Source of the DNA: Candidatus Omnitrophota bacterium
GTDB taxonomy: Bacteria > Omnitrophota > Gorgyraeia > Duberdicusellales > 4484-171
Assembly: GCA_041652815.1 (NCBI GenBank)
Contig: JBAZGN010000001.1
Coordinates: forward strand, 182,315 to 246,314
Direction: 5' to 3'
Length of the DNA stretch: 64,000 nucleotides
How positions within the stretch are numbered: position 1 is the first letter of the stretch; every line of letters begins with the position of its first letter. Made by a program: the position numbers and the translations under genes. Shown piece by piece: positions 1 to 14,601 of the stretch. The notes under the pieces are model-generated. The model did not search any database. It saw nothing but the letters and a program-made list of their open reading frames with translations, and was not told the origin of the DNA.

Positions 1-3000
1 TAACCTTTGAGGCTATGGTTAAAGAGCCGGTGGTATCAATATTGATATTTGCTGTACCGCTATAACCCCAGCTATCCACGCCTTCTAATCCGAAATTCTT
101 TACTGAATAACCCCACGTACCCGGGTCGATAAGAGTTAAATTGCCCTGATTTTTAATATTAATGTTGTAACTGTTAACTGAAGTGTCGCTCACTCTTGCG
201 GCAAGTTGGGAAACCTGGGTTTCCAAAGCATCTTCGCCCCATAAAGGATGCGAGCCAATTCCTAATGCTGAATCAAGAATTAATTTATTCGCCACTACAT
301 TCATTGCCGCGGCGTTATTATCAACGATTCTCCTATATTTACTGATAAGGGTGGCTGTGCCGGTTCCGGCATTAACATATCCAAGGCGTATATCGCCCCA
401 GGCAGTTAAATTAACGTCTCCGTTATTGGTTAAAATCTGCGCGCTACCGGATTGAACTATATTGCCATAAGCGTCTAAATCATTATAACCGCCTAATAAG
501 GTTATGGTTTTGCCGGCGAGAAGAGTTTGAATAGTTGTGCCGGTATTCTGAACGATGTCGTCTCCGGCGCTAAGAGTAATGTTTCCGTTGTTTGAGGTAA
601 TATTCGCATTGATGGTTAACCTATCCGCCAATGCAGGATAATCAGCAGTTTCTCCGGCGCTAAGGTTAATATCGCCGCTGGCAATCACATTAGCATTCAC
701 AGTTAATGGTGAAGCCGTTGAAATATTTACTGCGCCGTTTAAAGCATGAATCGCATAACCCCACGCAGCAGGATCAACAAGACTCAAATCGCCCGTATTA
801 TTAATTTCTATATTTCCGTTTGTGGTTTGTGCGGATAAGTTGGAAACTTCTGTTTCAAGGGGATTACCTGTACCGATGCCATCTTGAGCGGAAAGAATAA
901 GACTGGTAGCAGTGATATTAAGGTTGACAACGGGTGGTCCTGTTGTATCATTGCCGTCAAAAATTGCTCCTGTAGCCCTTAAATCCACCAAAGCGCTTGT
1001 TCCTGTCGCGCTGATATTACCAATATATAAATCTCCGCCTGTAACGTCTACAAAAATATCTCCGTTATTGTTTGAACCGTTAAAATTTAAAGACGAATTA
1101 CCGTTCTGGTTGAAATTAATATTTCCGTTTGTGGTGTTTGCGGTTGTATTTACCGGAAGGCCATTGCTTGTCGTGTTGTCTACATTAATATCTCCGCCGG
1201 CATTATTTAAAGTAATATCGTTTGCGATGGTTTCAATTGCATTGCCTGCGCCGATACCGCTAAGTGCGTTAAGAATAACATTAGCAGCGCTAATATTGTT
1301 TAAACCCCCGTTTAAATCGATAATTGCACCAGCACTAGTAATTAATTTAACTGTGCCGATAGAATCAACCAGGCCAACAGAAATATCTCCTGTAGCGTCT
1401 ACCTCTATATTGCCCGCAGAATTAGTGATTAAGCCCGGGCTGTAAACTGTATTGGCAACAATCTTAAGGTCGCCTGAAGAAGTAGTAATTGTACCGTAAT
1501 TGTTCAAGTTATTGAGTAGATCAAGTACGTTGCCGTTTAAATCCAGGGTCTTGCCTGTTATCACATCTACATTATAAAAAGTTGTGGTGCCATAAAGATT
1601 AGAAGTACCTGTGCCGCCAAAAACAATTGTGCTATGTTTGGGGTCAAACGTGCCGTTGTTGGTCCAGTTACCAGTCACGGTTATAATTTCCCCATCTAAC
1701 GTTGTCAGGGAACTGCCTGGAGTTATAACAATATTATTAAAAGTAAGGTCATCGCCGGAAGCGCCGCTTGCTATGCTGTTGCCGTTAAAAGTAACCGTAC
1801 CGCCGTTGGCATTGAAGGTGGTGCCGTAGCCGTTTAATTGGAAGATGCCGGCGATATTCATATTGCCGGCAGGGGCATTAAGAGCATGGCCAATGGCAAT
1901 GTATAAATTATTAAATGATGGCTCGATAGAACCACTAATAGTGCTAGTGGTGCCGTCACCGTAGAATCTAACGCTTGCATTATTATGGTTAAAAGTACCG
2001 TTTTGAATCCAGTTTCCGGATACCTTTATTTCATTGACAGGGGCAGTAAGGCTGGTGCCCGCACCGATAGTCAAGTCACCGGTGATATCTAAAGTAATTG
2101 TGCTGCCGCCTACACTTAAAGCGCTAGTGCCGGCAGTAATAAGATTATGGAAAGCTTGCGTATAAGGCGTGCCGTTAATCTGCTGACTGCCCGCACCGTT
2201 AAAAATAACCGTACCGCCGTTGGGATTAAAGGTGCCGCCGTTATTGGTCCAGTTACCTGAAATATTAGTATTTGCACCTGCGCTAAAGGTAGCTCCGCTC
2301 TCAATAATTAAACTCTTAGCAGTTACATCATCTCCCGGAGTAAAAGTTTTCCCTGCCCAAATCAACAGGTCGCCGTTTACATTCAAGGGACTGGAAACGC
2401 TATAAATTATATCCGGGTCGGTTAATCCGCCTTTAGCAGCGGCTAAGATTGCGTTGGTAATCGCTCCGGCAGCTTCATGCCTTAAAATTAAAGTTCCGCC
2501 ATAAATATTTAAACCAATTATATCCGCTGCTACGCCGGTAAGAGTTACGGTAGTTCCATGCACAACATTGCCGTCTATATAAACTAAAATAACAGAGCCA
2601 TCAGCATAATTTACATTGGCAAAGCTATAATTACCGTTTGTGGTAATAACAGGACTGCCGATAACGTTTCCGTTTATAACAAGAATTATATTTGCGCCAT
2701 CCGTAATCCGTGTTATGCCCTGGTCAAGATAAACAATACCGGAAATAGCGAAACCAGTTGGCACCGGAATCTGCCAAATAAAGCAAGGATAGCCATTATT
2801 TATGCTGGCATTAATCCCCCAAGTGTTAGTGAAATCCCATCCGGCGTTAGTAAACGTTGATTGGGTTTTCATGTCTGCGGTAGATTTTCCAGTCATGCCT
2901 GATGGATCGCTAGAACCATTACCAGCGCCTCTGGATATACCAGAAACGTCTTTATCCCAGAAATTTGCTGTATAATGAGCGCCGATATCGTTATATCCAA

Positions 3001-5833
3001 CTAAACCGCCAAAATATATTGCGGGGTGACTGGAACTGCCTGATGTACTGGCCGTAGCGCTTATATTACCAGCAAAATAAGATTTTTCGATAGTACCATA
3101 ATTTTGCCCTACTAAACCACCAATATACACGGTGGCATCGCTATCACTACCAGTTGTTGATGCTGTGCCAGACACATTTCCTCTAGCGTAACAGTTAGAA
3201 ATAGTACTGGAAGAGCTGACCTGGCCAACTAAACCACCAACGATAACGGTAACGGGATTATCATGCCCTGTCCTTGCCCACGTGCCAGTCACATTGGTAG
3301 TGGAATAGGATTTAGATATACTGCTTGAATGGCTGATATAACCAGCTAGACTTCCAACATAATTTCTACCTGTTATACTTCCGCCCTCTAAACCGACATT
3401 TTGGATTTGAGCACCATAGAGATAGCCAAAAAGACCAACATAGTCTGAAGAGCGGTTTATATAAAGACCTGTAATTTTGTGATAATCGCCGTCGAGACTG
3501 CCGGTAAAATTATTGGAACTGCTGCCTACCGACTCAAAGCCTTTGTTGCTATCCCAAGTAGAGGTTCCGGAAGCATCTATGTCTTTCGCGAGCTTAAAGT
3601 ATGACGAAAGGTGGCATTTCATTGCCTGTAGACCATAGATATCATATATAAGGTATGGGGTAGCTGAACTGCCAGTTCCGGTAAAGCGGTTAAAAGTGCC
3701 ACCCGGCAGAGTAAAACTGTTGGATACGCTAAAAACAATGGTTGGGTCAGACTGGAAAGTCCCGCTGTTTAAGATAAAATTAGCTACGCTAATCGCGTTA
3801 TTCTGTACAAATGTCGGATTTGAACCGGAATCAGACTCTCTTAAAGTAAGCGTTGCCACTCCGCTTATGGTGCGCAGCATGCAATTTTTTGGGCTCCCCG
3901 AAGAAAGCGCAGAGCTTCTTATGGTAAGATTATTGTTATTCCCAATAATAGAAGAACCAGGCCCCATGCTAAAAACACCCCAGCCGCCGGTATTATGATC
4001 TGCCCAGAAAGTAAGATCGCCGGTCATATTTATAACGGCATTGTCCGCGATATTAATGTCATCGTCATCATACCAGGGGCCGCTATAATTTCCGCTACCC
4101 CAGGTTATTGCATTGTCAAGATTATCTAGATATGCAGATTCGACTTCAGCTGTTCCGCTAACATAAAATGACGCGCCGTGCTCTAAAAGGGTCTTTGCCC
4201 TTAAAATGCCTGTGGCTTCAATGGGCCCCTGGGCTTCAAGAGTAACGGTTCCACTTGATAGAATTGTTCCGGTTATATTTATGCCTTGATTACTGGTTAA
4301 AGAAATGTTTTGAGCGGAAATTTCACCTGCGATTATGATGGTATAAGTGCTGGTAAGAGCAGGGTCGTACGGTAGGGTGGTCGCGAACACAACATTTGCA
4401 GCGTTGTAAGACGGTGGTGCGCGGCCGTTTAAGACGCCGTAAAAACCTAATTGATTAAAAGCATTTATTTCAAATGAACCAGCATCACCTTGTATACTAC
4501 CGGCTGATACATCAATTACCGCTCCGCTTAATACGTCTGTACCGCCGTTTGTTGACTTAACCAATATCTGGCCGCCGTTACCCACGGTAAACGGGCAAGC
4601 TGCACTGGTTACACTATTTGAACCTAAAACAGTTGAGCTCTGGGAAATAAGTTCGACTGACCCGGCTGTTCCACCTTCATATGCGTTTGCTGAAATTAAG
4701 CCATTCTGGAAGAGCATCGCGCTCAATAACGCAACTTGCCCTCCGTCAACTGCTGTGCTCGTTCCATCCGCGGTAATTGAACCGCTATTTATTAAAACTC
4801 CATTATCGGCAGTAACAGCGATAGTTGCCTCGCCTGAAACAGGGTTGCTTACACTAATAGTTCCTTCATTTATAATATTGCTTGTTGCATTAACAATCTT
4901 TATTTCTTTGCTTGCCTCTATAATGCCGGTTGCGGTATTTATAATCGGTGCGCCGCTGGCGGCAAGCTCGATAACTCCGTCGTGCTCGTTTAATGCTTTT
5001 GCCTGGATTACGCCTGAATTATTTATCGCGTAGTCAAAAACCTCATTTAAGACTTTAGCTGTTAGAATAATTTTTCCGCCGTTTGCAGAAATGGTGCCGC
5101 TATTTTTAATTGCGCTATCCATTCTCTGGCCGTCGGGTCCGATGATTTCTGACTGAACGGCTTCATCTATGACTACGGAAATTAAACTATTGTTGTCTAA
5201 GCCAACGGTAATTTTTTCACCGGCAGCCAAAGCAATCGTTCCTAAATTAGCTAAGGCATAAATTTCGCCCTGATTTTCTACTGCCTGGGAAAGAAGACAA
5301 ATGTATCCTCCGGCTTTGTTGGTTGAAAGCATTCCGTTGTTGATGACGTAAGCGTTCTTGCCGGCGACTTTAAAAAATTCATAGTTGCCTTTCATAAAAT
5401 TTTCGTTGGTGATATCAAGAGTTGAGGCAACTAACCCCGCGGCATTAACGTGGCTTCCTGAACCAAATAAAATTCCGTTTGGATTTACTAAAAAGATTTG
5501 CCCGTTTGGTGCGTTGATTGTCCCGAAGATACTGGAAGGGTCGGCTCCGGTTACGCGGTTTAAAGAAATAAAAGACGAATCGCGGTTATAGTTAACTGTC
5601 TTACCTGCGGCAACGTTATAACTGTTCCAATCAATAATGGATTTGTCGCTGCCAATATTTATGTCTACTGTGTTGGGGTTGGTATTGATTATGGCAGCAG
5701 AACCGTCTACGACTGTGCCGCCTTCGGGAAGACTTTGCGAAAAGCAATTCAAAGAGAGTGAAAAAAGAAAAATAGCCAGAAAGGCTATTTTGTAAATACT
5801 GATTTTTTTGCTAAATTTTTTAAACGACTCCAT
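1..5833 (-). CDS. Two-partner-secretion exoprotein TpsA (filamentous haemagglutinin / large adhesin family), 3' end beyond the window
   Basis: The minus-strand frame is open from ATG at 5833-5831 to the window edge; it is missing from the ORF track because its stop lies outside. My own translation of the first ~550 codons gives a signal peptide (MESFKKFSKKISIYKIAFLAIFLFSLSLNCFSQ) followed by a TPS secretion domain (NYNRDSSFISLNRVTGADPSSIFGTINAPNGQIFLVNPNGILFGSGSHVNAAGLVASTLDI), then long G/S/T/N-rich beta-helical repeats. Only one >=60 aa ORF is listed on the minus strand across 1-5833, consistent with a single uninterrupted frame. Confidence 0.75.
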   Translation of the reverse strand, partial: MESFKKFSKKISIYKIAFLAIFLFSLSLNCFSQSLPEGGTVVDGSAAIINTNPNTVDINIGSDKSIIDWNSYNVAAGKTVNYNRDSSFISLNRVTGADPSSIFGTINAPNGQIFLVNPNGILFGSGSHVNAAGLVASTLDITNENFMKGNYEFFKVAGKNAYVINNGMLSTNKAGGYICLLSQAVENQGEIYALANLGTIALAAGEKITVGLDNNSLISVVIDEAVQSEIIGPDGQRMDSAIKNSGTISANGGKIILTAKVLNEVFDYAINNSGVIQAKALNEHDGVIELAASGAPIINTATGIIEASKEIKIVNATSNIINEGTISVSNPVSGEATIAVTADNGVLINSGSITADGTSTAVDGGQVALLSAMLFQNGLISANAYEGGTAGSVELISQSSTVLGSNSVTSAACPFTVGNGGQILVKSTNGGTDVLSGAVIDVSAGSIQGDAGSFEINAFNQLGFYGVLNGRAPPSYNAANVVFATTLPYDPALTSTYTIIIAGEISAQNISLTSNQGINITGTILSSGTVTLEAQGPIEATGILRAKTLLEHGASFYVSGTAEVESAYLDNLDNAITWGSGNYSGPWYDDDDINIADNAVINMTGDLTFWADHNTGGWGVFSMGPGSSIIGNNNNLTIRSSALSSGSPKNCMLRTISGVATLTLRESDSGSNPTFVQNNAISVANFILNSGTFQSDPTIVFSVSNSFTLPGGTFNRFTGTGSSATPYLIYDIYGLQAMKCHLSSYFKLAKDIDASGTSTWDSNKGFESVGSSSNNFTGSLDGDYHKITGLYINRSSDYVGLFGYLYGAQIQNVGLEGGSITGRNYVGSLAGYISHSSSISKSYSTTNVTGTWARTGHDNPVTVIVGGLVGQVSSSSTISNCYARGNVSGTASTTGSDSDATVYIGGLVGQNYGTIEKSYFAGNISATASTSGSSSHPAIYFGGLVGYNDIGAHYTANFWDKDVSGISRGAGNGSSDPSGMTGKSTADMKTQSTFTNAGWDFTNTWGINASINNGYPCFIWQIPVPTGFAISGIVYLDQGITRITDGANIILVINGNVIGSPVITTNGNYSFANVNYADGSVILVYIDGNVVHGTTVTLTGVAADIIGLNIYGGTLILRHEAAGAITNAILAAAKGGLTDPDIIYSVSSPLNVNGDLLIWAGKTFTPGDDVTAKSLIIESGATFSAGANTNISGNWTNNGGTFNPNGGTVIFNGAGSQQINGTPYTQAFHNLITAGTSALSVGGSTITLDITGDLTIGAGTSLTAPVNEIKVSGNWIQNGTFNHNNASVRFYGDGTTSTISGSIEPSFNNLYIAIGHALNAPAGNMNIAGIFQLNGYGTTFNANGGTVTFNGNSIASGASGDDLTFNNIVITPGSSLTTLDGEIITVTGNWTNNGTFDPKHSTIVFGGTGTSNLYGTTTFYNVDVITGKTLDLNGNVLDLLNNLNNYGTITTSSGDLKIVANTVYSPGLITNSAGNIEVDATGDISVGLVDSIGTVKLITSAGAIIDLNGGLNNISAANVILNALSGIGAGNAIETIANDITLNNAGGDINVDNTTSNGLPVNTTANTTNGNINFNQNGNSSLNFNGSNNNGDIFVDVTGGDLYIGNISATGTSALVDLRATGAIFDGNDTTGPPVVNLNITATSLILSAQDGIGTGNPLETEVSNLSAQTTNGNIEINNTGDLSLVDPAAWGYAIHALNGAVNISTASPLTVNANVIASGDINLSAGETADYPALADRLTINANITSNNGNITLSAGDDIVQNTGTTIQTLLAGKTITLLGGYNDLDAYGNIVQSGSAQILTNNGDVNLTAWGDIRLGYVNAGTGTATLISKYRRIVDNNAAAMNVVANKLILDSALGIGSHPLWGEDALETQVSQLAARVSDTSVNSYNINIKNQGNLTLIDPGTWGYSVKNFGLEGVDSWGYSGTANINIDTTGSLTIASKV

Positions 5834-9184: not shown

Positions 9185-10653
9185 ACACAACATTATCCTC
9201 TATGGGGCCCATTATAGGTTCGGCGATTTTTCTATGTTTCGTGATAGTTTTTCTTGTTATTTATATTATAAATAAGCTGCAATTTATAAATATCCTCAAA
9301 AGAAATATCGAACACCTTAATAAAACAATCCGGGAGCTTGATTATCAGGCAAAACTAATAATCAAGGGCGATATGGAGCTGAAGCTCTACCAGGAAGAAG
9401 TGGAAGATAAACTCAACAAGCTTACTCTTCTTAAAAATCTCATAATATCTTCACTGCACATTCTGGATAAAGAAAACCTTTTTTCGCAAGTAGACGATAA
9501 AACGATAAATGACCTGGGTTTTAAAAAGGGCCTGATACTCACAATGGAAGGCGAGGTAAAATTAAGTGTCGGCTTTGAACCCAAGGAAATAGATGCACTA
9601 AAAGATTTCGTAAAATATAAAAAGAACTTCATCCAGGCCATACCATTAATTTCATCCGATACCGAAGCCGGTGCGGAATTGATAACTACCCTTCAAACAA
9701 AAGATTTTCTAATCGCTCCGATAAAAGCGCGGGAGAAAATATATGCCGTGTTTGTTTTGGCCAACCTGGTTATGCCAACGGATGTCAGGCGCGCGGAAAA
9801 AGAAATTTTTTCAATTATCTGTATGTATCTTGGCCAGTGCCTCGACAACATTCAGCTTTTTGAAGAAATCTATAATGCAAAAGATGAGCTTGAGAAGAAA
9901 GTAAAAGAAAGAACCAATGAATTAGTTAAGAGCTTACGCGAGATAGAAGCAATTAGCCGGGCAAAATCGGATTTTATCTCCGGCGTATCGCATGAATTGC
10001 GCACCCCTCTTACTTCAGTAAAAGGTTTCTCTTCGCTCTTGGTTGCTGAAAAATTCGGAAAGCTCCCTGAAGAAGCCAAGAAGCGCCTTGAGACAATAGA
10101 TGAAAATGTTGATAAGCTTGTAAATATGGTCAATACTCTTTTGGACATCGCGCGTATCGAATCGGGGAAAACAGAAGTAAAAATAGCTCCTGCCGATATC
10201 GCAAAATCAATCAGGGATGCGGGCGAATTCCTCTCCCCTCAAATGCAGGCAAAAGCAATAAAATTAGTTTTGGATACACCGGAGACACTTTTGGTCTACA
10301 TGGATAAAAACCTTATTGACCAGGTATTTATAAACCTGCTTGGAAATGCCATTAAATTCACGCCCAACGGCGGGCAGATAAAAATAAGTGTTAAGGCAAC
10401 CGGCAATCAAGCTGTTGTTGCCGTAGCAGATACAGGCTATGGAATAGAGAAAGAAAATTTGGAAAAGATTTTTCAGGAATTCTTTAGGGCAGATAATGCA
10501 GTAAATGCTATGGCAAAAGGAACGGGGCTTGGCCTATCTCTTGTAAAAAGAATTATCGAAATACACAAAGAAAAAATATGGGTCGAATCAGAAATTGGAA
10601 AAGGCAGCACCTTTTATTTCACGCTTAAATTGGCGAAGGAAAAGAACATTTAA
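9175..10653 (+). CDS. Sensor histidine kinase (N-terminal TM helix, coiled coil, GAF-like region, HisKA, HATPase_c)
   Basis: H-box SHELRTPLTSVKGF, N-box LLGNAIKFTP, G-boxes DTGYGI and GTGLGLSLVKRIIE, and an N-terminal hydrophobic helix. Confidence 0.85.
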   Translation: MEMNTTLSSMGPIIGSAIFLCFVIVFLVIYIINKLQFINILKRNIEHLNKTIRELDYQAKLIIKGDMELKLYQEEVEDKLNKLTLLKNLIISSLHILDKENLFSQVDDKTINDLGFKKGLILTMEGEVKLSVGFEPKEIDALKDFVKYKKNFIQAIPLISSDTEAGAELITTLQTKDFLIAPIKAREKIYAVFVLANLVMPTDVRRAEKEIFSIICMYLGQCLDNIQLFEEIYNAKDELEKKVKERTNELVKSLREIEAISRAKSDFISGVSHELRTPLTSVKGFSSLLVAEKFGKLPEEAKKRLETIDENVDKLVNMVNTLLDIARIESGKTEVKIAPADIAKSIRDAGEFLSPQMQAKAIKLVLDTPETLLVYMDKNLIDQVFINLLGNAIKFTPNGGQIKISVKATGNQAVVAVADTGYGIEKENLEKIFQEFFRADNAVNAMAKGTGLGLSLVKRIIEIHKEKIWVESEIGKGSTFYFTLKLAKEKNI

Positions 10654-10724
10654 AATGGAAAAGGTTAAGGTTGAGGTTAAGCTATAATATACTCTTGACC
10701 TCAACCTTAACCTGAGTTTATATT

Positions 10725-11663
10725 ATGGTTAAATTAAAAATAATGGTCGTTGACGACGACCCTGATATTTTGGAACTTCTCAAGGCAACCCTGGAAGAAG
10801 AATACGAAGTTATCAGTGCCGCCCTTGGCAACGAAGCTATAGAAAAATTAAAAAGCCAGGTGCCTGACCTATTGGTTTTAGATTATATGCTTCCTGACAT
10901 TCAGGGGCCGCAAATATGTAATATTTTAAGAAAAGACCCGCTGCTTGTGCATTTGCCCGTGCTGATGCTGACCGGCAAAGGAGAAATCGAAGATAAGGTA
11001 AAAGGGCTTGAGTCAGGTGTTGATGATTATATGGTAAAGCCTTTTTCACCGCAGGAGCTTACTGCGAGAGTGCGAATGCTTATACGGCGGTCGAATATCA
11101 ATTTAGACGCAAACCCTTTAACGCGGCTTCCCGGAAACGTTTCAATAAACCGCGAACTGGATGAAAAGATAAAAAGCAAAGAAAAGTTTGCCGCGCTTTA
11201 TATCGATTTGGATAACTTCAAAGCGGTAAATGACTACTACGGCTTTGAAAGAGGCGACGAGGTAATAAAAGAAACCGCCCGCATTTTAATCGATGCCATT
11301 TCAAAAGAAGGCACCACAAAAGATTTCATCGGCCATATCGGCGGAGATGATTTCTTTATCATAACCTCTCCGGAAAAGGGCGAAGAAATAGCAAAAAAAA
11401 TAATAAGTGATTTCGATAAAGTATCTCCCAAATTTTTTGATGAAAAAGACAGGATAAAAGGCTTTATCGAAACAAAGGGGCGTGACAACGAAATACATAA
11501 ATTCGGATTTATTACTATCTCTGTGGGAATAATAACCAACTTATACAGAGAGTTCACGCATACCGCACAAATAAGCTCGCTCGGAGCAGAAGTTAAGGGG
11601 TTTGCCAAAAAATTCGCTCAAAGTAAATATATTTTCGACAAAAGAACCGAGCAGAAATACTGA
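10725..11663 (+). CDS. Response regulator: REC domain fused to a GGDEF-family domain with non-canonical GGDDF signature
   Basis: REC motifs (MVVDDDPDILELL, phospho-acceptor in LVLDYMLPD, MLTGKG, KPF). GGDEF-domain motifs are NPLTRLPGN, DLDNFKAVNDYYG, RGDEVIK, then GGDDF where GG(D/E)EF is expected. Confidence 0.8.
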   Translation: MVKLKIMVVDDDPDILELLKATLEEEYEVISAALGNEAIEKLKSQVPDLLVLDYMLPDIQGPQICNILRKDPLLVHLPVLMLTGKGEIEDKVKGLESGVDDYMVKPFSPQELTARVRMLIRRSNINLDANPLTRLPGNVSINRELDEKIKSKEKFAALYIDLDNFKAVNDYYGFERGDEVIKETARILIDAISKEGTTKDFIGHIGGDDFFIITSPEKGEEIAKKIISDFDKVSPKFFDEKDRIKGFIETKGRDNEIHKFGFITISVGIITNLYREFTHTAQISSLGAEVKGFAKKFAQSKYIFDKRTEQKY

Positions 11664-11754
11664 ATACGAATTACCACGAATTTGAAACGAATTGCCACTA
11701 ATTAAAACCTATTTAAATAGTTCCAAAAAATAAATATAGTTGTCAGAGTAACGG

Positions 11755-12525
11755 TTGTATGATATATATAATCTTCCTAAAAATAAACATAGTATGCCAA
11801 AATTAGAAGTTAACGATAATTTTTTCAAAAATTGGTCACCAGATATGGCTTATGTTTTAGGTTTGATTACCGCTGATGGATGCCTCATAAAACATAAAAA
11901 TGGCCATAGGAGTTTGGATATTACTTTAAAAGATAAAAGATTACTGGAAGATATTAAAAAACTATTAAATTCCGAGCACAAAATAGGTAAAAAAACCAGA
12001 GGATACCGTCTACAAATTAAAAACAAAACTTTGTATAATGATCTTTATAGCTTAGGGCTAACTCCAAGAAAATCTAAAACTATTAGGTTCCCTGCCGTAC
12101 CTCCGAAATATCTTTCTGATTTTGTACGAGGTTATTTTGACGGTGATGGCAGCGTTTGCGTATGGAAAGAAAAACGCTGGAAAAATAGTTTACAAATCAG
12201 AACAACTTTTGTTTGCGGGAGCTTACCTTTTTTAAAATCATTAAAAACCAATCTCTCTGAATATGGCGAACTAGATAAAGGTAAAATATGGGGAGGAAAC
12301 AAAAACAACAGAGCGGCTTATGAGCTTCATTACGGGATAAATGATAGCTTAAGATTGTTTAATTTTATATATAAACCTCAAAGCTTTCCCTATTTAAACC
12401 GAAAAAAACAAAAGTTTGAGTTCTTTATAAAATCAAAAAATAATTTTCCATCTGCGAGAGTGGCGGTCAACAACCTTTGCCAAAGGCAAAGCTTCTTTAA
12501 TGTTGTTGCCCGCATAAGCTATTAA
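11755..12525 (+). CDS. LAGLIDADG-family homing endonuclease, free-standing (two-motif, single-chain type)
   Basis: Two LAGLIDADG motifs at the expected spacing (LGLITADGCL and VRGYFDGDGSV). The protein is basic with a K/R-rich C-terminal half. The true start may be the internal Met of MPKLEVNDN. Confidence 0.8.
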   Translation: MYDIYNLPKNKHSMPKLEVNDNFFKNWSPDMAYVLGLITADGCLIKHKNGHRSLDITLKDKRLLEDIKKLLNSEHKIGKKTRGYRLQIKNKTLYNDLYSLGLTPRKSKTIRFPAVPPKYLSDFVRGYFDGDGSVCVWKEKRWKNSLQIRTTFVCGSLPFLKSLKTNLSEYGELDKGKIWGGNKNNRAAYELHYGINDSLRLFNFIYKPQSFPYLNRKKQKFEFFIKSKNNFPSARVAVNNLCQRQSFFNVVARISY

Positions 12526-12581
12526 ACTAAATAAATTTCTTGTAGAAGCAAAAAGTTTTTGACCAAACTGAAAACTATGTA

Positions 12582-12665
12582 GCGAGAGTGGCGGAATTGG
12601 CAGACGCATTAGCTTGAGGGGCTAACGGTAGCAATACTGTAGGGGTTCAACTCCCCTCTCTCGCA
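12582..12665 (+). tRNA. tRNA-Leu (anticodon GAG), type II with long variable arm
   Basis: Folded by hand. Acceptor stem gcgagag/ctctcgc with discriminator A. Anticodon stem ttagc/gctaa with loop ttGAGgg (U33, G37). Variable-arm hairpin cggta-gcaa-tactg. T stem agggg/cccct with loop ttcaact. CCA is not encoded. Confidence 0.85.
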
Positions 12666-12668
12666 TGT

Positions 12669-12745
12669 TTTATTTATTAACGTTTAGCGGGTAACGTATA
12701 GTATTGAATTACTAAACGCTCTACGCTAAACGTTAATAAAATGGT
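12669..12745. terminator. Dyad-symmetric element between convergent tRNA-Leu and rex (putative bidirectional terminator)
   Basis: ttaacgtttagcg ... cgctaaacgttaa, a perfect 13-bp inverted repeat, flanked by tgttttattta on the tRNA side and taaaatgg on the rex side. Confidence 0.45.
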
Positions 12746-12764
12746 TAAATAGTTTTCCTCGGTA

Positions 12765-13406
12765 CTACTGCAAGTTTACTCTTTCCAAAAGCTTCAATCT
12801 ATAGGTAAGATAAGTTAGCTGGCAAGAAAAATCCACATCCTTAAGGATAATGTCTTGCGGCAAAGCAAGTTTTACCGGTGCAAAATTTAAAATGGCGCGT
12901 ATTCCGCATCGATATAAATTATCTGAAATTTCTTTTGCATTTTCTTTTGGTACCGTTATTATCGCAATTCGGATATTTTCTTTCTTTATTATATTCTGAA
13001 GCTTCTCAAGGCCGTAAATTTTTATTCCGTTATAAGTTTTGTTTTGTTTATTTTTATCAACATCAAAGGCAGCCTTTATGCATATACCCTGGTCGCGAAA
13101 ACCTTTATAAAAGGAAAGGGCTCTGCCTAAATTGCCGAAACCCACAACGCAAACATTCCACTGCTGATTTAAACCGAGTATCTCTTTTATCCGGTCAATA
13201 AGCTCAAGGCAGGAATATCCCACGCCCTTTTTGCCGAAATGCCCGAAATAGGAAAGGTCTTTTCTTAATTGATGATGGCTTATTTTAAGAAAATCGGCGA
13301 GCTGGCGGCTTGATACTACTTTTTTCTTTTCTTCAAGAAAATAAATAAGGGCGCGCAGGTAATAAGATAGGCGTATGATGGTTTCTTCGGGAATTTTTTT
13401 GTCCAT
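12765..13406 (-). CDS. rex: Redox-sensing transcriptional repressor Rex (winged helix + NAD(H)-binding Rossmann domain)
   Basis: N-terminal IPEETIIRLSYYLRAL...SSRQLADFLKISHHQLRKDLSYFG. GxGxxG Rossmann motif VVGFGNLGRAL. The most plausible start is MDKKIPEE at 13406; the ORF-track extension to 13457 translates the upstream repeat element. Confidence 0.8.
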   Translation of the reverse strand: MDKKIPEETIIRLSYYLRALIYFLEEKKKVVSSRQLADFLKISHHQLRKDLSYFGHFGKKGVGYSCLELIDRIKEILGLNQQWNVCVVGFGNLGRALSFYKGFRDQGICIKAAFDVDKNKQNKTYNGIKIYGLEKLQNIIKKENIRIAIITVPKENAKEISDNLYRCGIRAILNFAPVKLALPQDIILKDVDFSCQLTYLTYRLKLLERVNLQ

Positions 13407-13410
13407 TGAT

Positions 13411-13575
13411 TTATTAAATAACCAATAACCAAGATACAAGATACAAACAATATTCAAATTCCAATAACCAATGACCGAACGGAAACATTGATTTTTGTTT
13501 GATTATTGAGATTTGGTTATTGGTCATTGTTTGGTTATTGTATCTTGGAGCTTGGTTATTTCTCCAGCTATTTTA
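13411..13575. repeat. Copy A of a ~150-bp palindromic 'ggttattg/caataacc' intergenic repeat family
   Basis: aataaccaataaccaagatacaagatacaaacaat ... attgtttggttattgtatcttggagcttggttatttctccagctat. The last ~45 nt are identical to copy C (32.2 kb). It lies between the hypE stop and the rex start. Confidence 0.7.
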
Positions 13576-13590
13576 ATTATTTATGGGTTG

Positions 13591-14601
13591 TTAGCATATG
13601 CGGGGCAAGTTAAACGAGTGTGAGAAATCAAGGATTCGCTCTCCTCCGGAAACTGTTTCAAGCACGACACCTTTTACGTTATCATCTATCTCTCCTATTA
13701 TTGATGCGGATTTGGAGGTTTTCTTTAAAAAATTTAAAACTTTCCTTGAAATTTTATCCGGCACAATAAGAACCGCTCTTCCTTCGCAGGCAAGATAATA
13801 AGGGTCTATTCCTAATATTTCGCAGGCAGCTTTCACGTCGCGCCGAACCGGTATATTTTCTTCGAAAATTCTTATTCCTTTTTTGCTTCCTAAATAGATT
13901 TCATTTAAAACGCTCGCGATTCCTCCCCGCGTTGGGTCACGCATAAAATTAATTTGCGGGAATTTCATCCATAGTGAAGTAACCAGCTTTTTTAAACTCT
14001 GACAATCGCTTTTTATGTTAAATTCGAAAATCTTTTTACGGCTGAGCATAACGCTTATTCCGTGCTCGCCGATTGAACCTGTAACAATTATCTTATCTTT
14101 ATTTTTTATATTTTTAAAAGAGGGGTTGGCATTCTGTATTTTTTCCCCTATGCCTGATGTGCTTATAAAAATTTTGTCTGCTTTTCCACGTTCAACCACT
14201 TTAAAGTCTCCGCTTACTATATCAACCTTAGATATGCGGGAGGCCAGATTTATTGAATTTACTATTCTTATAAGGTCGGATTTTAAAAACCCCTCTTCGA
14301 CAATCATGGCTAAACTTAAATATTTAGGGATTCCTCCACTAACACAAATATCGTTTACTGTGCCGAAGACGGAAAGTTTACCTATGTCGGAACCGGGGAA
14401 AAATATAGGGTCTACAGTAAAAGAGTCACAGCTATAAACAAATTTTCCTATGGTTGCTGCATCTGTTAACTGCGCAAGGATAGGATTAGAAAGTTTCTTT
14501 AGGAAAACTTCTCTAATTAAATTGTAGCTCGCTTTCGTGCCTTCGCCGTGTTTTAGGGTTATAATTTCTTCGTTCATAATATTTATAAGTAGAAGGAGCA
14601 A
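13591..14601 (-). CDS. hypE: [NiFe]-hydrogenase maturation factor HypE
   Basis: PurM/AIR-synthase-like fold. The C-terminus ends in PRIC, the HypE carbamoyl/cyano-carrying cysteine motif. Confidence 0.85.
   Translation of the reverse strand: MLLLLINIMNEEIITLKHGEGTKASYNLIREVFLKKLSNPILAQLTDAATIGKFVYSCDSFTVDPIFFPGSDIGKLSVFGTVNDICVSGGIPKYLSLAMIVEEGFLKSDLIRIVNSINLASRISKVDIVSGDFKVVERGKADKIFISTSGIGEKIQNANPSFKNIKNKDKIIVTGSIGEHGISVMLSRKKIFEFNIKSDCQSLKKLVTSLWMKFPQINFMRDPTRGGIASVLNEIYLGSKKGIRIFEENIPVRRDVKAACEILGIDPYYLACEGRAVLIVPDKISRKVLNFLKKTSKSASIIGEIDDNVKGVVLETVSGGERILDFSHSFNLPRIC

What the first reader, a model, noticed from the sequence alone, without database searches (positions are those of the whole stretch)
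11755..12665. Free-standing LAGLIDADG homing endonuclease immediately upstream of an intact tRNA-Leu(GAG)
Double-motif LAGLIDADG enzymes in bacteria are normally found inside group I introns or inteins. Here the ORF is intergenic, co-oriented with the tRNA gene 57 bp downstream, and the tRNA appears uninterrupted. Three readings are possible: a degenerated group I intron remnant whose ribozyme core is gone, a domesticated endonuclease, or a still-mobile free-standing element targeting tRNA-Leu loci. The ACGAAT array lies just upstream.
Basis: partly seen in the sequence, partly recalled or inferred. Interest (0 to 1): 0.6.

Follow-up and report, generated by a model that had tools for sequence, protein, structure and literature searches.

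The report
Homing endonuclease gene inside a pre-tRNA leader
A selfish DNA-cutting enzyme gene sits between the promoter and the body of a leucine tRNA gene in an Omnitrophota bacterium, is missing from close relatives, and belongs to a large, apparently undescribed group of such genes that always live wedged against tRNA genes.

Summary
The ORF (probable start ATG 11794, stop 12525) encodes a two-domain LAGLIDADG endonuclease with both catalytic Asp intact. tRNA-Leu(GAG) at 12582-12665 is uninterrupted.

The ORF is not simply intergenic. A 683-bp cassette (11771-12453) lies between the conserved tRNA-Leu promoter (11740-11768) and the tRNA leader. It has no stop codon of its own. Its last 24 codons read into a 128-nt leader unit that begins with an exact 13-nt copy of the tRNA 5' end.

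Seven of eleven related alleles, identified by the same neighbouring response-regulator gene, lack the cassette. Both allele types occur in one metagenome. The gene is under purifying selection (dN/dS 0.03-0.10). No group I ribozyme is present.

Among 80 relatives from Omnitrophota and Patescibacteria, 67 abut same-strand tRNA genes, and in 35 the stop codon lies inside the downstream tRNA.

Best reading: an active or recently active free-standing homing endonuclease gene that lives in pre-tRNA leaders and spacers. This resembles phage T4 SegB in lifestyle but uses LAGLIDADG chemistry on bacterial chromosomes. The cleavage site and actual homing are untested. The ACGAAT array and the 13-nt repeat belong to the tRNA locus, not to the element.

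The parts
11666..11703 (+). Four phased repeats (ACGAATT x3, ACTAATT x1; spacing 10-11 nt) ending 37 nt upstream of the -35 box. Part of the response-regulator/tRNA intergenic region, not of the endonuclease cassette.
   Evidence: Read directly. A similar array sits at the same place in the ORF-less allele L084. Other lineages carry different short arrays (L087, L091, L093) or a hairpin (L090) there.
11740..11768 (+). Promoter of the tRNA-Leu transcription unit: TTGTCA, 14 nt, TGn, TATATA (extended -10).
   Evidence: The same TTG-type -35 hexamer, about 14 nt, then TGn and a TATA-type -10 box is found in alleles with the ORF (window, L002, L090, L001) and without it (L084, L086, L093, L096, L089). 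In L089 and L096 it lies 13-36 nt before tRNA nucleotide 1. The generic scan did not list it because its rule requires T at the sixth position of the -10 hexamer.
11771..12453 (+). Endonuclease cassette (683 bp): a 23-nt 5' untranslated stretch plus codons 1-220, with no stop codon. This is the DNA that is present or absent between alleles.
   Evidence: Against ORF-less L084, homology runs to window 11770 and resumes at 12454; L084 has an unrelated 108-nt hairpin in between. GC is 31.2% against 37.0% for the window.
11794..12525 (+). LAGLIDADG endonuclease ORF, 243 aa. Motif 1 is MAYVLGLITADGC (D28 at 11875-11877). Motif 2 is FVRGYFDGDGS (D118 at 12145-12147). Codons 221-243 (12454-12522) are read-through into the leader unit.
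   Evidence: dN/dS is 0.10 against L090 and 0.027 against L002.
12454..12581 (+). 128-nt leader unit: a copy of tRNA nucleotides 1-13 (12454-12466), then a long hairpin (CAACAAC...GTTGTTG enclosing CTTTGCC-AAA-GGCAAAG, about 12467-12513), then CCGC, which pairs with G10-G13 of the copy, then an A/T-rich stretch.
   Evidence: The unit occurs 0, 1 or 2 times in relatives whether or not they carry the endonuclease gene. It is therefore a feature of the tRNA locus, not a footprint of the cassette.
12582..12665 (+). tRNA-Leu(GAG), uninterrupted, CCA not encoded.
   Evidence: ARAGORN; Rfam RF00005 52 bits, full length.
12673..12740 (.). 31-nt-arm inverted repeat between the tRNA and the convergent Rex gene. 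It may act as a two-way terminator (inference).
   Evidence: I1, 84% complementary. No run of T follows it, so the terminator scan did not list it.

Best explanation
This is a free-standing, two-domain LAGLIDADG homing endonuclease gene that has colonised the 5' leader of the tRNA-Leu(GAG) transcription unit of an Omnitrophota bacterium.

Shown:
- The cassette (11771-12453) begins a few bases after the -10 box of the tRNA's own promoter.
- It ends exactly where tRNA sequence begins, or a copy of the first 13 tRNA nucleotides.
- It has no promoter or stop codon of its own.
- It is present or absent among close relatives.
- It is under purifying selection, with catalytic residues intact.
- Its whole protein clade is linked to tRNA-Leu(GAG), and the wider family to other tRNA genes.

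Inferred:
- The gene is transcribed as the leader of the pre-tRNA and separated from the tRNA by RNase P.
- The protein cuts alleles lacking the cassette at or near the 5' end of the tRNA-Leu gene (the 13-mer is the only sequence that always adjoins the cassette).
- The break is repaired from a cassette-bearing allele, using the conserved promoter and the tRNA as the homologous flanks.
- The leader is discarded during tRNA maturation, so the tRNA stays intact and neither an intron nor an intein is needed.
- The window's arrangement (cassette joined to the leader copy of the 13-mer rather than to the tRNA itself) is what insertion at, or recombination through, the 13-mer would produce in an allele that already carried a leader unit.
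For: Identity of the protein.

Presence/absence at one locus:
- With the ORF: window, L002, L090, L001.
- Without it: L084/L085, L086, L087/L088, L089, L093/L094, L095, L096.
- All share the same upstream response-regulator gene.
- L085 (without) and L090 come from the same metagenome, Ga0265297.

Boundaries and promoter.

The right junction is always at the 13-mer. It joins the true tRNA in L090 and L001, and the leader copy in the window and L002.

Purifying selection: dN/dS 0.10 and 0.027, like the neighbouring Rex gene at 0.08.

Family linkage:
- 67 of 80 loci have a same-strand tRNA adjacent.
- 35 ORFs end on a stop codon inside the downstream tRNA.
- In 19 of those the stop is TAG at tRNA positions 8-10.
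- The protein tree splits into tRNA-Leu-, tRNA-Cys- and tRNA-Met/Asp-linked clades.
- Partial tRNA-Leu copies follow the ORF in L003, L005 and L007. In L007 the last nucleotides of the copy do not match the resident tRNA.

L002 is 100% identical to the window up to the tRNA 3' end and about 78% beyond it.

Precedent for the lifestyle: T4 SegB (PMC2330249).
Against: - No cleavage site has been identified and no activity tested.
- Divergence of the ORF tracks that of the flanking genes (dS 0.47 against 0.51 for Rex). Over the sampled timescale, vertical descent with losses explains the distribution as well as transfer does.
- Cassette-bearing alleles keep a tRNA 5' end identical to that of ORF-less L087. 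If the target lies wholly inside the tRNA, the carriers are not obviously immune.
- Purifying selection is also what a host-beneficial gene would show.
- The L002 mosaic could be a chimeric assembly of co-existing strains.
- Presence/absence in the other Omnitrophota clade and in Patescibacteria was not tested.
- Low GC of the cassette is weak evidence: 9% of same-sized windows are lower.
Confidence: 0.6

Rival explanations
1. A stranded but intact endonuclease gene. It was inserted once in an ancestor of this clade, has been inherited vertically since, and has been lost repeatedly. It no longer homes, for example because no cleavable alleles remain.
For: ORF divergence parallels the flanks: 89.9% against 87.7-89.3% nucleotide identity for window-L090, and 82.4% against 80.2% for L001. 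dS is 0.47 against 0.51. ORF-less alleles carry unrelated fillers (a 108-nt hairpin in L084, a 95-nt leader in L086) that could be deletion or replacement scars.
Against: A non-homing selfish gene is expected to decay. Here dN/dS is 0.03-0.10 and both catalytic Asp are kept. The cassette occurs in two different right-hand contexts, joined to the tRNA or to the leader unit, which needs at least one recombination or insertion event. Both allele types co-exist in one sample.
Confidence: 0.2
2. A domesticated LAGLIDADG protein kept for a host function at tRNA loci, such as DNA binding or regulation, or recombination and repair of highly transcribed tRNA genes.
For: Strong purifying selection. Fixed positions next to particular tRNAs across many Patescibacteria lineages at only 39-46% identity, which suggests long residence.
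Against: It is absent from 7 of 11 related alleles, so it is dispensable here. Catalytic Asp residues are invariant, unlike WhiA-type domesticated proteins, and there is no added DNA-binding domain. The WhiA profile scores only 13.8 bits against a 23.2-bit cut-off.
Confidence: 0.15
3. A remnant of a group I intron, or other intron, that once interrupted tRNA-Leu and has lost its ribozyme.
For: Group I introns do occur in bacterial tRNA anticodon loops, including in Patescibacteria (PMC13011429). In L003 the partial tRNA copy after the ORF starts at the anticodon loop.
Against: There is no Intron_gpI hit even at E<=10. None was found in the 10 tRNA-Leu-linked loci scanned. The tRNA is complete and the cassette lies outside it. 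ORF-less alleles have no intron. The single intron hit (L041) overlaps the last ~75 nt of the ORF and extends ~200 nt beyond it, where other loci carry tRNA-Asp; I read it as an intron in that downstream tRNA, but no tRNA exons were located.
Confidence: 0.03

Closest known systems
Phage T4 SegB (free-standing GIY-YIG homing endonuclease in the T4 tRNA gene cluster; PMC2330249, PMC13096335)
   Same: A free-standing endonuclease gene embedded among tRNA genes. SegB recognises tRNA gene sequence (the T-psi-C motif) and spreads itself together with neighbouring tRNA DNA. Per its abstract, PMC13096335 reports that SegB promotes segmental amplification of anti-defence loci in phage T6. Partial tandem duplications are also seen here around tRNA-Leu.
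   Different: The catalytic family differs (GIY-YIG against LAGLIDADG). SegB is a phage gene; this one is on bacterial chromosomes. SegB has its own gene boundaries, whereas this ORF fills the pre-tRNA leader or spacer and usually ends on a stop codon inside the tRNA. Target recognition here is untested.
Archaeal rRNA-intron-encoded monomeric LAGLIDADG enzymes I-Tsp061I and I-DmoI
   Same: Closest solved structures and sequences: 2dch at Foldseek E 1.8e-11 and profile E 7e-9. Same two-domain single-chain architecture and acidic residues.
   Different: Those enzymes are encoded inside introns of rRNA genes. This one is outside any intron. Identity is only about 26%.
LAGLIDADG genes in rRNA insertion sequences of Patescibacteria (Tsurumaki et al. 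2024, PMC11270868)
   Same: Same superfamily and, for part of the family, the same host phylum. Insertion into highly conserved RNA genes.
   Different: Those genes sit inside rRNA genes, often within group I introns, and are mostly single-domain LAGLIDADG_1. That paper does not mention tRNA at all.
Group I introns in bacterial tRNA anticodon loops (Nakagawa et al. 2026, PMC13011429; cyanobacterial tRNA-Leu(UAA))
   Same: Mobile DNA associated with tRNA genes. A few encode homing endonucleases.
   Different: There is no ribozyme here and the tRNA is uninterrupted. The paper reports LAGLIDADG genes only in cyanobacterial tRNA-Arg(CCU) introns (PF03161), and no free-standing ones.
WhiA (domesticated LAGLIDADG-fold transcription factor)
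   Same: Two-domain LAGLIDADG fold on bacterial chromosomes.
   Different: By established knowledge of that family, WhiA has lost the catalytic residues and carries a C-terminal helix-turn-helix. Here the Asp residues are invariant, there is no extra domain, and the WhiA profile scores below its cut-off.

Membership tests
LAGLIDADG homing endonuclease, single-chain two-domain type (Pfam PF14528) | Profile match above the curated threshold, in two repeats | tested here: met
   45.5 bits against a 22.5-bit cut-off, two stretches.
LAGLIDADG homing endonuclease, single-chain two-domain type (Pfam PF14528) | Two LAGLIDADG helices, each ending in a conserved acidic residue | tested here: met
   D28 and D118 are invariant in 26 sequences. 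Helices 16-28 and 104-118 each lead into a beta-sheet.
LAGLIDADG homing endonuclease, single-chain two-domain type (Pfam PF14528) | Alpha-beta-beta-alpha-beta-beta-alpha fold, twice | tested here: met
   Model pLDDT 88.9, pTM 0.84. The 50 best PDB matches listed are all LAGLIDADG proteins; 132 matches in all reach E<=0.001.
LAGLIDADG homing endonuclease, single-chain two-domain type (Pfam PF14528) | Site-specific double-strand cleavage of a long (about 20 bp) target | not testable with these tools
   Needs purified protein and ORF-less alleles as substrates.
Homing endonuclease gene as a mobile element | Present or absent at the same site among related genomes | tested here: met
   4 alleles with and 7 without, at the response-regulator/tRNA-Leu locus.
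Homing endonuclease gene as a mobile element | Biased transmission into empty alleles, or a tree incongruent with the host | tested here: inconclusive
   ORF divergence tracks the flanks. The L002 mosaic and the two right-hand contexts hint at exchange. There are too few alleles for a congruence test.
Group I intron-encoded endonuclease | ORF embedded in or flanked by a group I ribozyme that interrupts a host gene | tested here: not met
   No Intron_gpI match at E<=10. The tRNA is intact. There are no introns at the 10 tRNA-Leu loci scanned.
Intein-associated endonuclease | In-frame insertion in a host protein, with Hint splicing domains | tested here: not met
   The ORF stands alone. Only LAGLIDADG profiles match.
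SegB-like free-standing endonuclease of tRNA gene clusters | Free-standing ORF lying against tRNA genes on the same strand | tested here: met
   Window and 67 of 80 relatives.
SegB-like free-standing endonuclease of tRNA gene clusters | GIY-YIG catalytic domain | tested here: not met
   The domain is LAGLIDADG. The resemblance is in lifestyle, not family membership.
SegB-like free-standing endonuclease of tRNA gene clusters | Recognition of tRNA gene sequence | not testable with these tools
   Indirect only: the cassette always adjoins the tRNA 5' 13-mer, and protein clades follow the tRNA partner.
WhiA-type domesticated LAGLIDADG protein | Loss of catalytic acidic residues and a C-terminal helix-turn-helix domain | tested here: not met
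   The Asp residues are retained. LAGLIDADG_WhiA scores 13.8 bits against a 23.2-bit cut-off and no further domain is present.

The most novel reading that the evidence does not exclude
A whole clade of LAGLIDADG endonuclease genes in Omnitrophota and Patescibacteria has specialised in living inside pre-tRNA leaders and inter-tRNA spacers. These genes have no promoter and often no stop codon of their own. They would be expressed from tRNA promoters and cut out of the transcript by tRNA-processing enzymes, a bacterial counterpart of mitochondrial 'tRNA punctuation'. Each subclade would target the ends of one tRNA gene. Their cuts would be the cause of the partial tandem duplications of tRNA 5' and 3' ends seen around these genes, including the tRNA 5' copy in the window's leader.
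Probability: 0.3. Interest if true: 0.75.

Novelty: new variant of a known kind. Interest (0 to 1): 0.55.

Why it matters
Free-standing homing endonucleases face a problem: inserting into a conserved target normally destroys the gene. Introns and inteins are the textbook escapes. This locus suggests a third route for cellular genomes, which is to sit in the part of a tRNA transcript that is thrown away during maturation, flanked by conserved promoter and tRNA DNA.

If the family-wide pattern holds, three things follow:
- It explains a common class of "LAGLIDADG family homing endonuclease" and hypothetical-protein annotations in two large uncultured phyla.
- It gives gene callers a reason for the over-long ORFs that run through tRNAs.
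- It supplies a set of natural meganucleases whose probable targets (tRNA gene ends) can be guessed from context and tested directly.

It also raises a testable link between endonuclease activity and the partial duplications that surround these tRNA genes.

Tried and rejected
1. Group I intron search. Rfam at E<=10 on the window and at gathering threshold on 20 loci found nothing next to the tRNA-Leu-linked ORFs. The only hit, in L041, overlaps the ORF's 3' end and runs into the position where tRNA-Asp normally lies.

2. I first took the 13-nt repeat for a footprint or target-site duplication left by the cassette. I rejected this because the repeat and its 115-nt spacer are also present in ORF-less alleles (L084, L087, L093), in 1-2 copies.

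3. I assumed that tRNA-Leu-linked relatives in other Omnitrophota lie in different neighbourhoods. This was wrong. The same response-regulator gene is their neighbour too, but convergent with the tRNA.

4. The generic promoter scan did not list the conserved promoter, and its hits were at chance level. The promoter was found by comparing alleles.

5. The terminator-like call inside the leader unit (12475-12491) is at chance level. Its T-rich tail lies inside a longer helix, so I did not treat it as a terminator.

6. RNAalifold on the leader units gave only a partial structure. The D-like stem was read by hand from the sequences.

7. The metagenome scan with the tRNA 3' half returned a single locus, L090, which was useful but gave no population sample.

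8. Phage relatives are below 38% identity and lie in intron or intein-type contexts, so there is no sign of phage origin.

9. Low GC of the cassette is too weak to argue foreign origin.

10. Literature searches found no description of tRNA-flanked free-standing LAGLIDADG genes in bacteria. The library is incomplete, so this is absence of evidence only.
Full report
**Observation**

The window holds an ORF at 11755-12525 on the + strand and a single tRNA gene, tRNA-Leu(GAG), at 12582-12665. Rfam scores the tRNA at 52 bits over the full model with no interruption.

The ORF matches Pfam LAGLIDADG_3 at 45.5 bits against a cut-off of 22.5, in two stretches. In an alignment with 25 relatives, both motifs are conserved: MAYVLGLITADGC and FVRGYFDGDGS. 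The acidic residues D28 and D118, numbered from ATG 11794, are invariant.

An AlphaFold model built on that alignment has pLDDT 88.9 and pTM 0.84, with two alpha-beta-beta-alpha-beta-beta-alpha domains. Its best PDB matches are all LAGLIDADG proteins, led by the archaeal intron-encoded I-Tsp061I at E 1.8e-11. A profile search of PDB sequences also ranks I-Tsp061I first, at E 7e-9.

**Anatomy of the locus**

Three details change the picture.

- **Start codon.** The start is almost certainly ATG 11794. TTG 11755 lies upstream of the -10 box of a conserved promoter (TTGTCA, 14 nt, TGn, TATATA; 11740-11768). This promoter is found in every related allele. In alleles without the ORF it sits 13-36 nt before tRNA nucleotide 1. 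It is therefore the tRNA-Leu promoter.
- **No stop codon of its own.** Compared with an ORF-less relative (L084), window-specific DNA is only 11771-12453, which is 683 bp. Codons 221-243 read into DNA that belongs to the tRNA leader. This tail is not conserved in homologues and is disordered in the model.
- **A copy of the tRNA 5' end.** The DNA the ORF reads into begins with GCGAGAGTGGCGG (12454-12466). This is an exact copy of tRNA nucleotides 1-13 (12582-12594). None is expected by chance.

Neighbouring genes also lack Shine-Dalgarno sequences, so the bare 5' region of the ORF is normal for this genome.

**Related alleles**

The upstream response-regulator (GGDEF) gene has many close homologues in Candidatus Omnitrophota, which allowed the same locus to be read in relatives.

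| Allele(s) | ORF | Arrangement |
|---|---|---|
| window | yes | promoter - cassette - one leader unit - tRNA |
| L002 (protein 99% identical) | yes | as window |
| L090 (about 90% DNA identity) | yes | cassette joined directly to tRNA nucleotide 1; ORF stops at TGA in the anticodon loop |
| L001 (protein about 78% identical, low coverage) | yes | cassette joined directly to the tRNA |
| L084/L085 (regulator 94% identical) | no | 108-nt hairpin in place of the cassette, one leader unit |
| L086 | no | 95-nt leader, no unit |
| L087/L088 | no | two diverged leader units |
| L089 | no | promoter, 13 nt, tRNA |
| L093/L094 | no | two identical leader units |
| L095, L096 | no | no leader unit |

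L085 (without the ORF) and L090 (with it) come from the same metagenome.

The 13-mer and its 115-nt spacer occur in 0, 1 or 2 copies whether or not the ORF is present. They are a feature of the tRNA locus and not a scar of the cassette.

The cassette's right end is always joined to the 13-mer. In L090 and L001 that 13-mer is the start of the tRNA. In the window and L002 it is the leader copy. The window's arrangement cannot arise from the L090 arrangement by simple duplication. It needs insertion at, or recombination through, the 13-mer in an allele that already had a leader unit.

**Selection and exchange**

- dN/dS for the ORF core is 0.10 (window against L090) and 0.027 (window against L002). 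The neighbouring Rex gene gives 0.08. The protein is being maintained.
- ORF divergence parallels that of the flanks. Over this timescale, vertical descent with losses is as good an account as transfer.
- L002 is a mosaic. It is identical to the window from the regulator gene through most of the ORF, the leader and the tRNA, apart from an 88%-identical patch at 12249-12414. From the tRNA 3' end onward it is only about 78% identical. This is either a recombination breakpoint at the tRNA or an assembly chimera.
- Cassette GC is 31.2% against 37.0% for the window, which is only 1.4 standard deviations low.

**The wider family**

A scan of one genome per species returned 80 loci with relatives at 39-57% identity.

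- **tRNA adjacency.** 67 of the 80 have a same-strand tRNA directly adjacent.
- **Other Omnitrophota.** The ORF lies 9-80 nt downstream of tRNA-Leu(GAG) in L004-L010 and L048.
- **Patescibacteria.** The ORF is wedged between tRNA-Met(CAT) and tRNA-Asp(GTC). The ATG is often 0-5 nt after tRNA-Met.
- **Stop codons.** In 35 loci the stop codon lies inside the downstream tRNA. In 19 of these it is TAG formed by tRNA positions 8-10.
- **Other partners.** A few loci use tRNA-Cys, tRNA-Val or tRNA-Glu.
- **Protein tree.** A neighbour-joining tree separates tRNA-Leu-, tRNA-Cys- and tRNA-Met/Asp-linked clades. The window and L090 are sister to the other tRNA-Leu-linked genes.
- **Partial tRNA copies.** In L003, L005 and L007 a partial 3' copy of tRNA-Leu follows the ORF. 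In L007 the end of that copy does not match the resident tRNA's acceptor stem. This points to DNA carried between lineages.
- **Shared neighbour.** In those other Omnitrophota the same regulator gene is also the neighbour, but convergent with the tRNA (tRNA, then ORF, then the regulator gene on the opposite strand). The ORF follows the tRNA's orientation, not the regulator's.
- **Family size.** At 50% clustering there are 89 clusters at E<=1e-30 and 6618 at E<=1e-10.
- **Phage relatives.** These are below 38% identical.

**Rejected reading**

A degenerate group I intron is not supported.

- There is no Intron_gpI match at E<=10 in 10500-13800.
- None was found next to the ORF in the eight tRNA-Leu-linked loci with the ORF or in the two ORF-less alleles scanned.
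- The only hit among 20 loci (L041, 3588-3870) overlaps the ORF's last ~75 nt and extends past its stop, where other Patescibacteria loci carry tRNA-Asp. It is probably an intron of that downstream tRNA gene. That would fit the published tRNA-Asp introns of Patescibacteria (PMC13011429).

**Proposed mechanism**

Shown: the position, boundaries, polymorphism and conservation of the cassette, and its linkage to tRNA genes.

Inferred:
- The ORF is transcribed from the tRNA promoter as the pre-tRNA leader and released by RNase P.
- The enzyme cuts empty alleles at or near the tRNA 5' end.
- Repair copies the cassette in, using the conserved promoter and tRNA as flanks.
- No splicing is needed, because the leader is discarded anyway.

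Where the stop codon lies inside the tRNA (L090, and most Patescibacteria loci), RNase P processing would leave a message without a stop codon. This could keep enzyme levels low, but that is speculation.

**Comparison with known systems**

In lifestyle this resembles phage T4 SegB, a free-standing endonuclease in a tRNA gene cluster that recognises a tRNA motif (PMC2330249). By its abstract, SegB also promotes segmental amplification of anti-defence loci in phage T6 (PMC13096335). It is not a member of that family, because the domain here is LAGLIDADG and not GIY-YIG.

As a protein it is a clear member of the single-chain LAGLIDADG endonucleases. The papers on Patescibacteria rRNA insertions (PMC11270868) and on tRNA introns (PMC13011429) do not describe tRNA-flanked free-standing LAGLIDADG genes. 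Three further literature searches found none either.

I rate it a new variant of a known kind. Confidence in the homing-element reading is 0.6.

**Unexplained**

- **The leader unit mirrors the tRNA.** The unit at 12454-12581 mirrors the real tRNA in each genome. Its 13-mer matches the tRNA 5' end. A four-base stem (GCGG/CCGC in the window and L087; GTG/CAC in L084; GTGG/CCAC in L093) changes in step with the tRNA's D-stem, even though the two strands are separated by a hairpin of about 45 nt.
- **Tandem duplications at the tRNA 3' end.** ORF-less alleles L093 and L096 carry tandem duplications of the tRNA 3' end from the T-loop plus trailer. L084 and L087 carry a second copy of the last ~20 tRNA nucleotides about 100-180 nt downstream.
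- **Partial tRNA-Asp copies.** Several Patescibacteria loci have partial tRNA-Asp copies.

Whether endonuclease cuts cause these duplications is open.

Noticed in passing
window 12454-12581; L084 4657-4784; L087 4547-4797; L093 3546-3787: A roughly 126-nt leader unit upstream of tRNA-Leu(GAG). It starts with a copy of tRNA nucleotides 1-13, followed by a long hairpin and a CCGC/CAC strand that pairs with nucleotides 10-13. The copy and its pairing partner change together with the real tRNA's acceptor and D-stem in each genome. Copy number is 0-2, independent of the endonuclease gene. Its function is unknown.
   Followed up: partly
L093 3850-4112; L096 2555-2870; L084 4849-4993; L087 4866-5087: In L093 and L096 the last ~20 nt of tRNA-Leu (from the T-loop) plus the trailer is tandemly duplicated. 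L084 and L087 carry a second copy of the last ~20 tRNA nucleotides about 100-180 nt downstream. All four alleles lack the endonuclease gene. Patescibacteria loci L024, L026, L044, L052 and L064 have similar 3' fragments of tRNA-Asp.
   Followed up: partly
L002 against window 11359-13578: Mosaic identity: 100% up to 12143, an 88% patch at 12249-12414 inside the ORF, 100% through the leader and tRNA, then about 78% from the tRNA 3' end (12651) into Rex. This is either a recombination breakpoint at the tRNA or a chimeric assembly.
   Followed up: partly
window 11666-11703 and the same position in L084, L087, L090, L091, L093: Just after the response-regulator stop codon, each lineage has its own short phased repeat array: ACGAATT in the window and L084, ACGC[A/T]AAT in L087, GAAATACA in L091, ACAAGC in L093. 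L090 has a hairpin instead. The arrays lie upstream of the tRNA promoter. They could be upstream promoter elements or slippage products.
   Followed up: no
L005-L008, L010 (for example L006 3637-4560, minus strand): A 52-54% identical homologue of the window's GGDEF response regulator is also the neighbour of tRNA-Leu(GAG) plus the endonuclease gene in distant Omnitrophota, but convergent with them. The regulator/tRNA-Leu linkage is old, and the tRNA has been inverted in one lineage.
   Followed up: no
L041 3588-3870: A group I intron (Rfam 51 bits) that overlaps the last ~75 nt of the endonuclease ORF (2983-3663) and extends ~200 nt beyond it, where other loci have an intact tRNA-Asp. This may be the intron-bearing tRNA-Asp described for Patescibacteria. 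A free-standing endonuclease gene next to an intron-interrupted target gene recalls 'collaborative homing'.
   Followed up: no
many family members (for example proteins of 290-340 aa): Database proteins of this family often carry 70-100 extra N-terminal residues. The ORFs in L020, L038, L053 and L060 extend upstream across the neighbouring tRNA. This looks like gene-calling through a tRNA gene that contains no in-frame stop codon.
   Followed up: no
L087 5166-5666: A 166-aa ORF with no Pfam match lies just after the duplicated tRNA 3' fragment in an allele that lacks the endonuclease gene. It was not examined.
   Followed up: no
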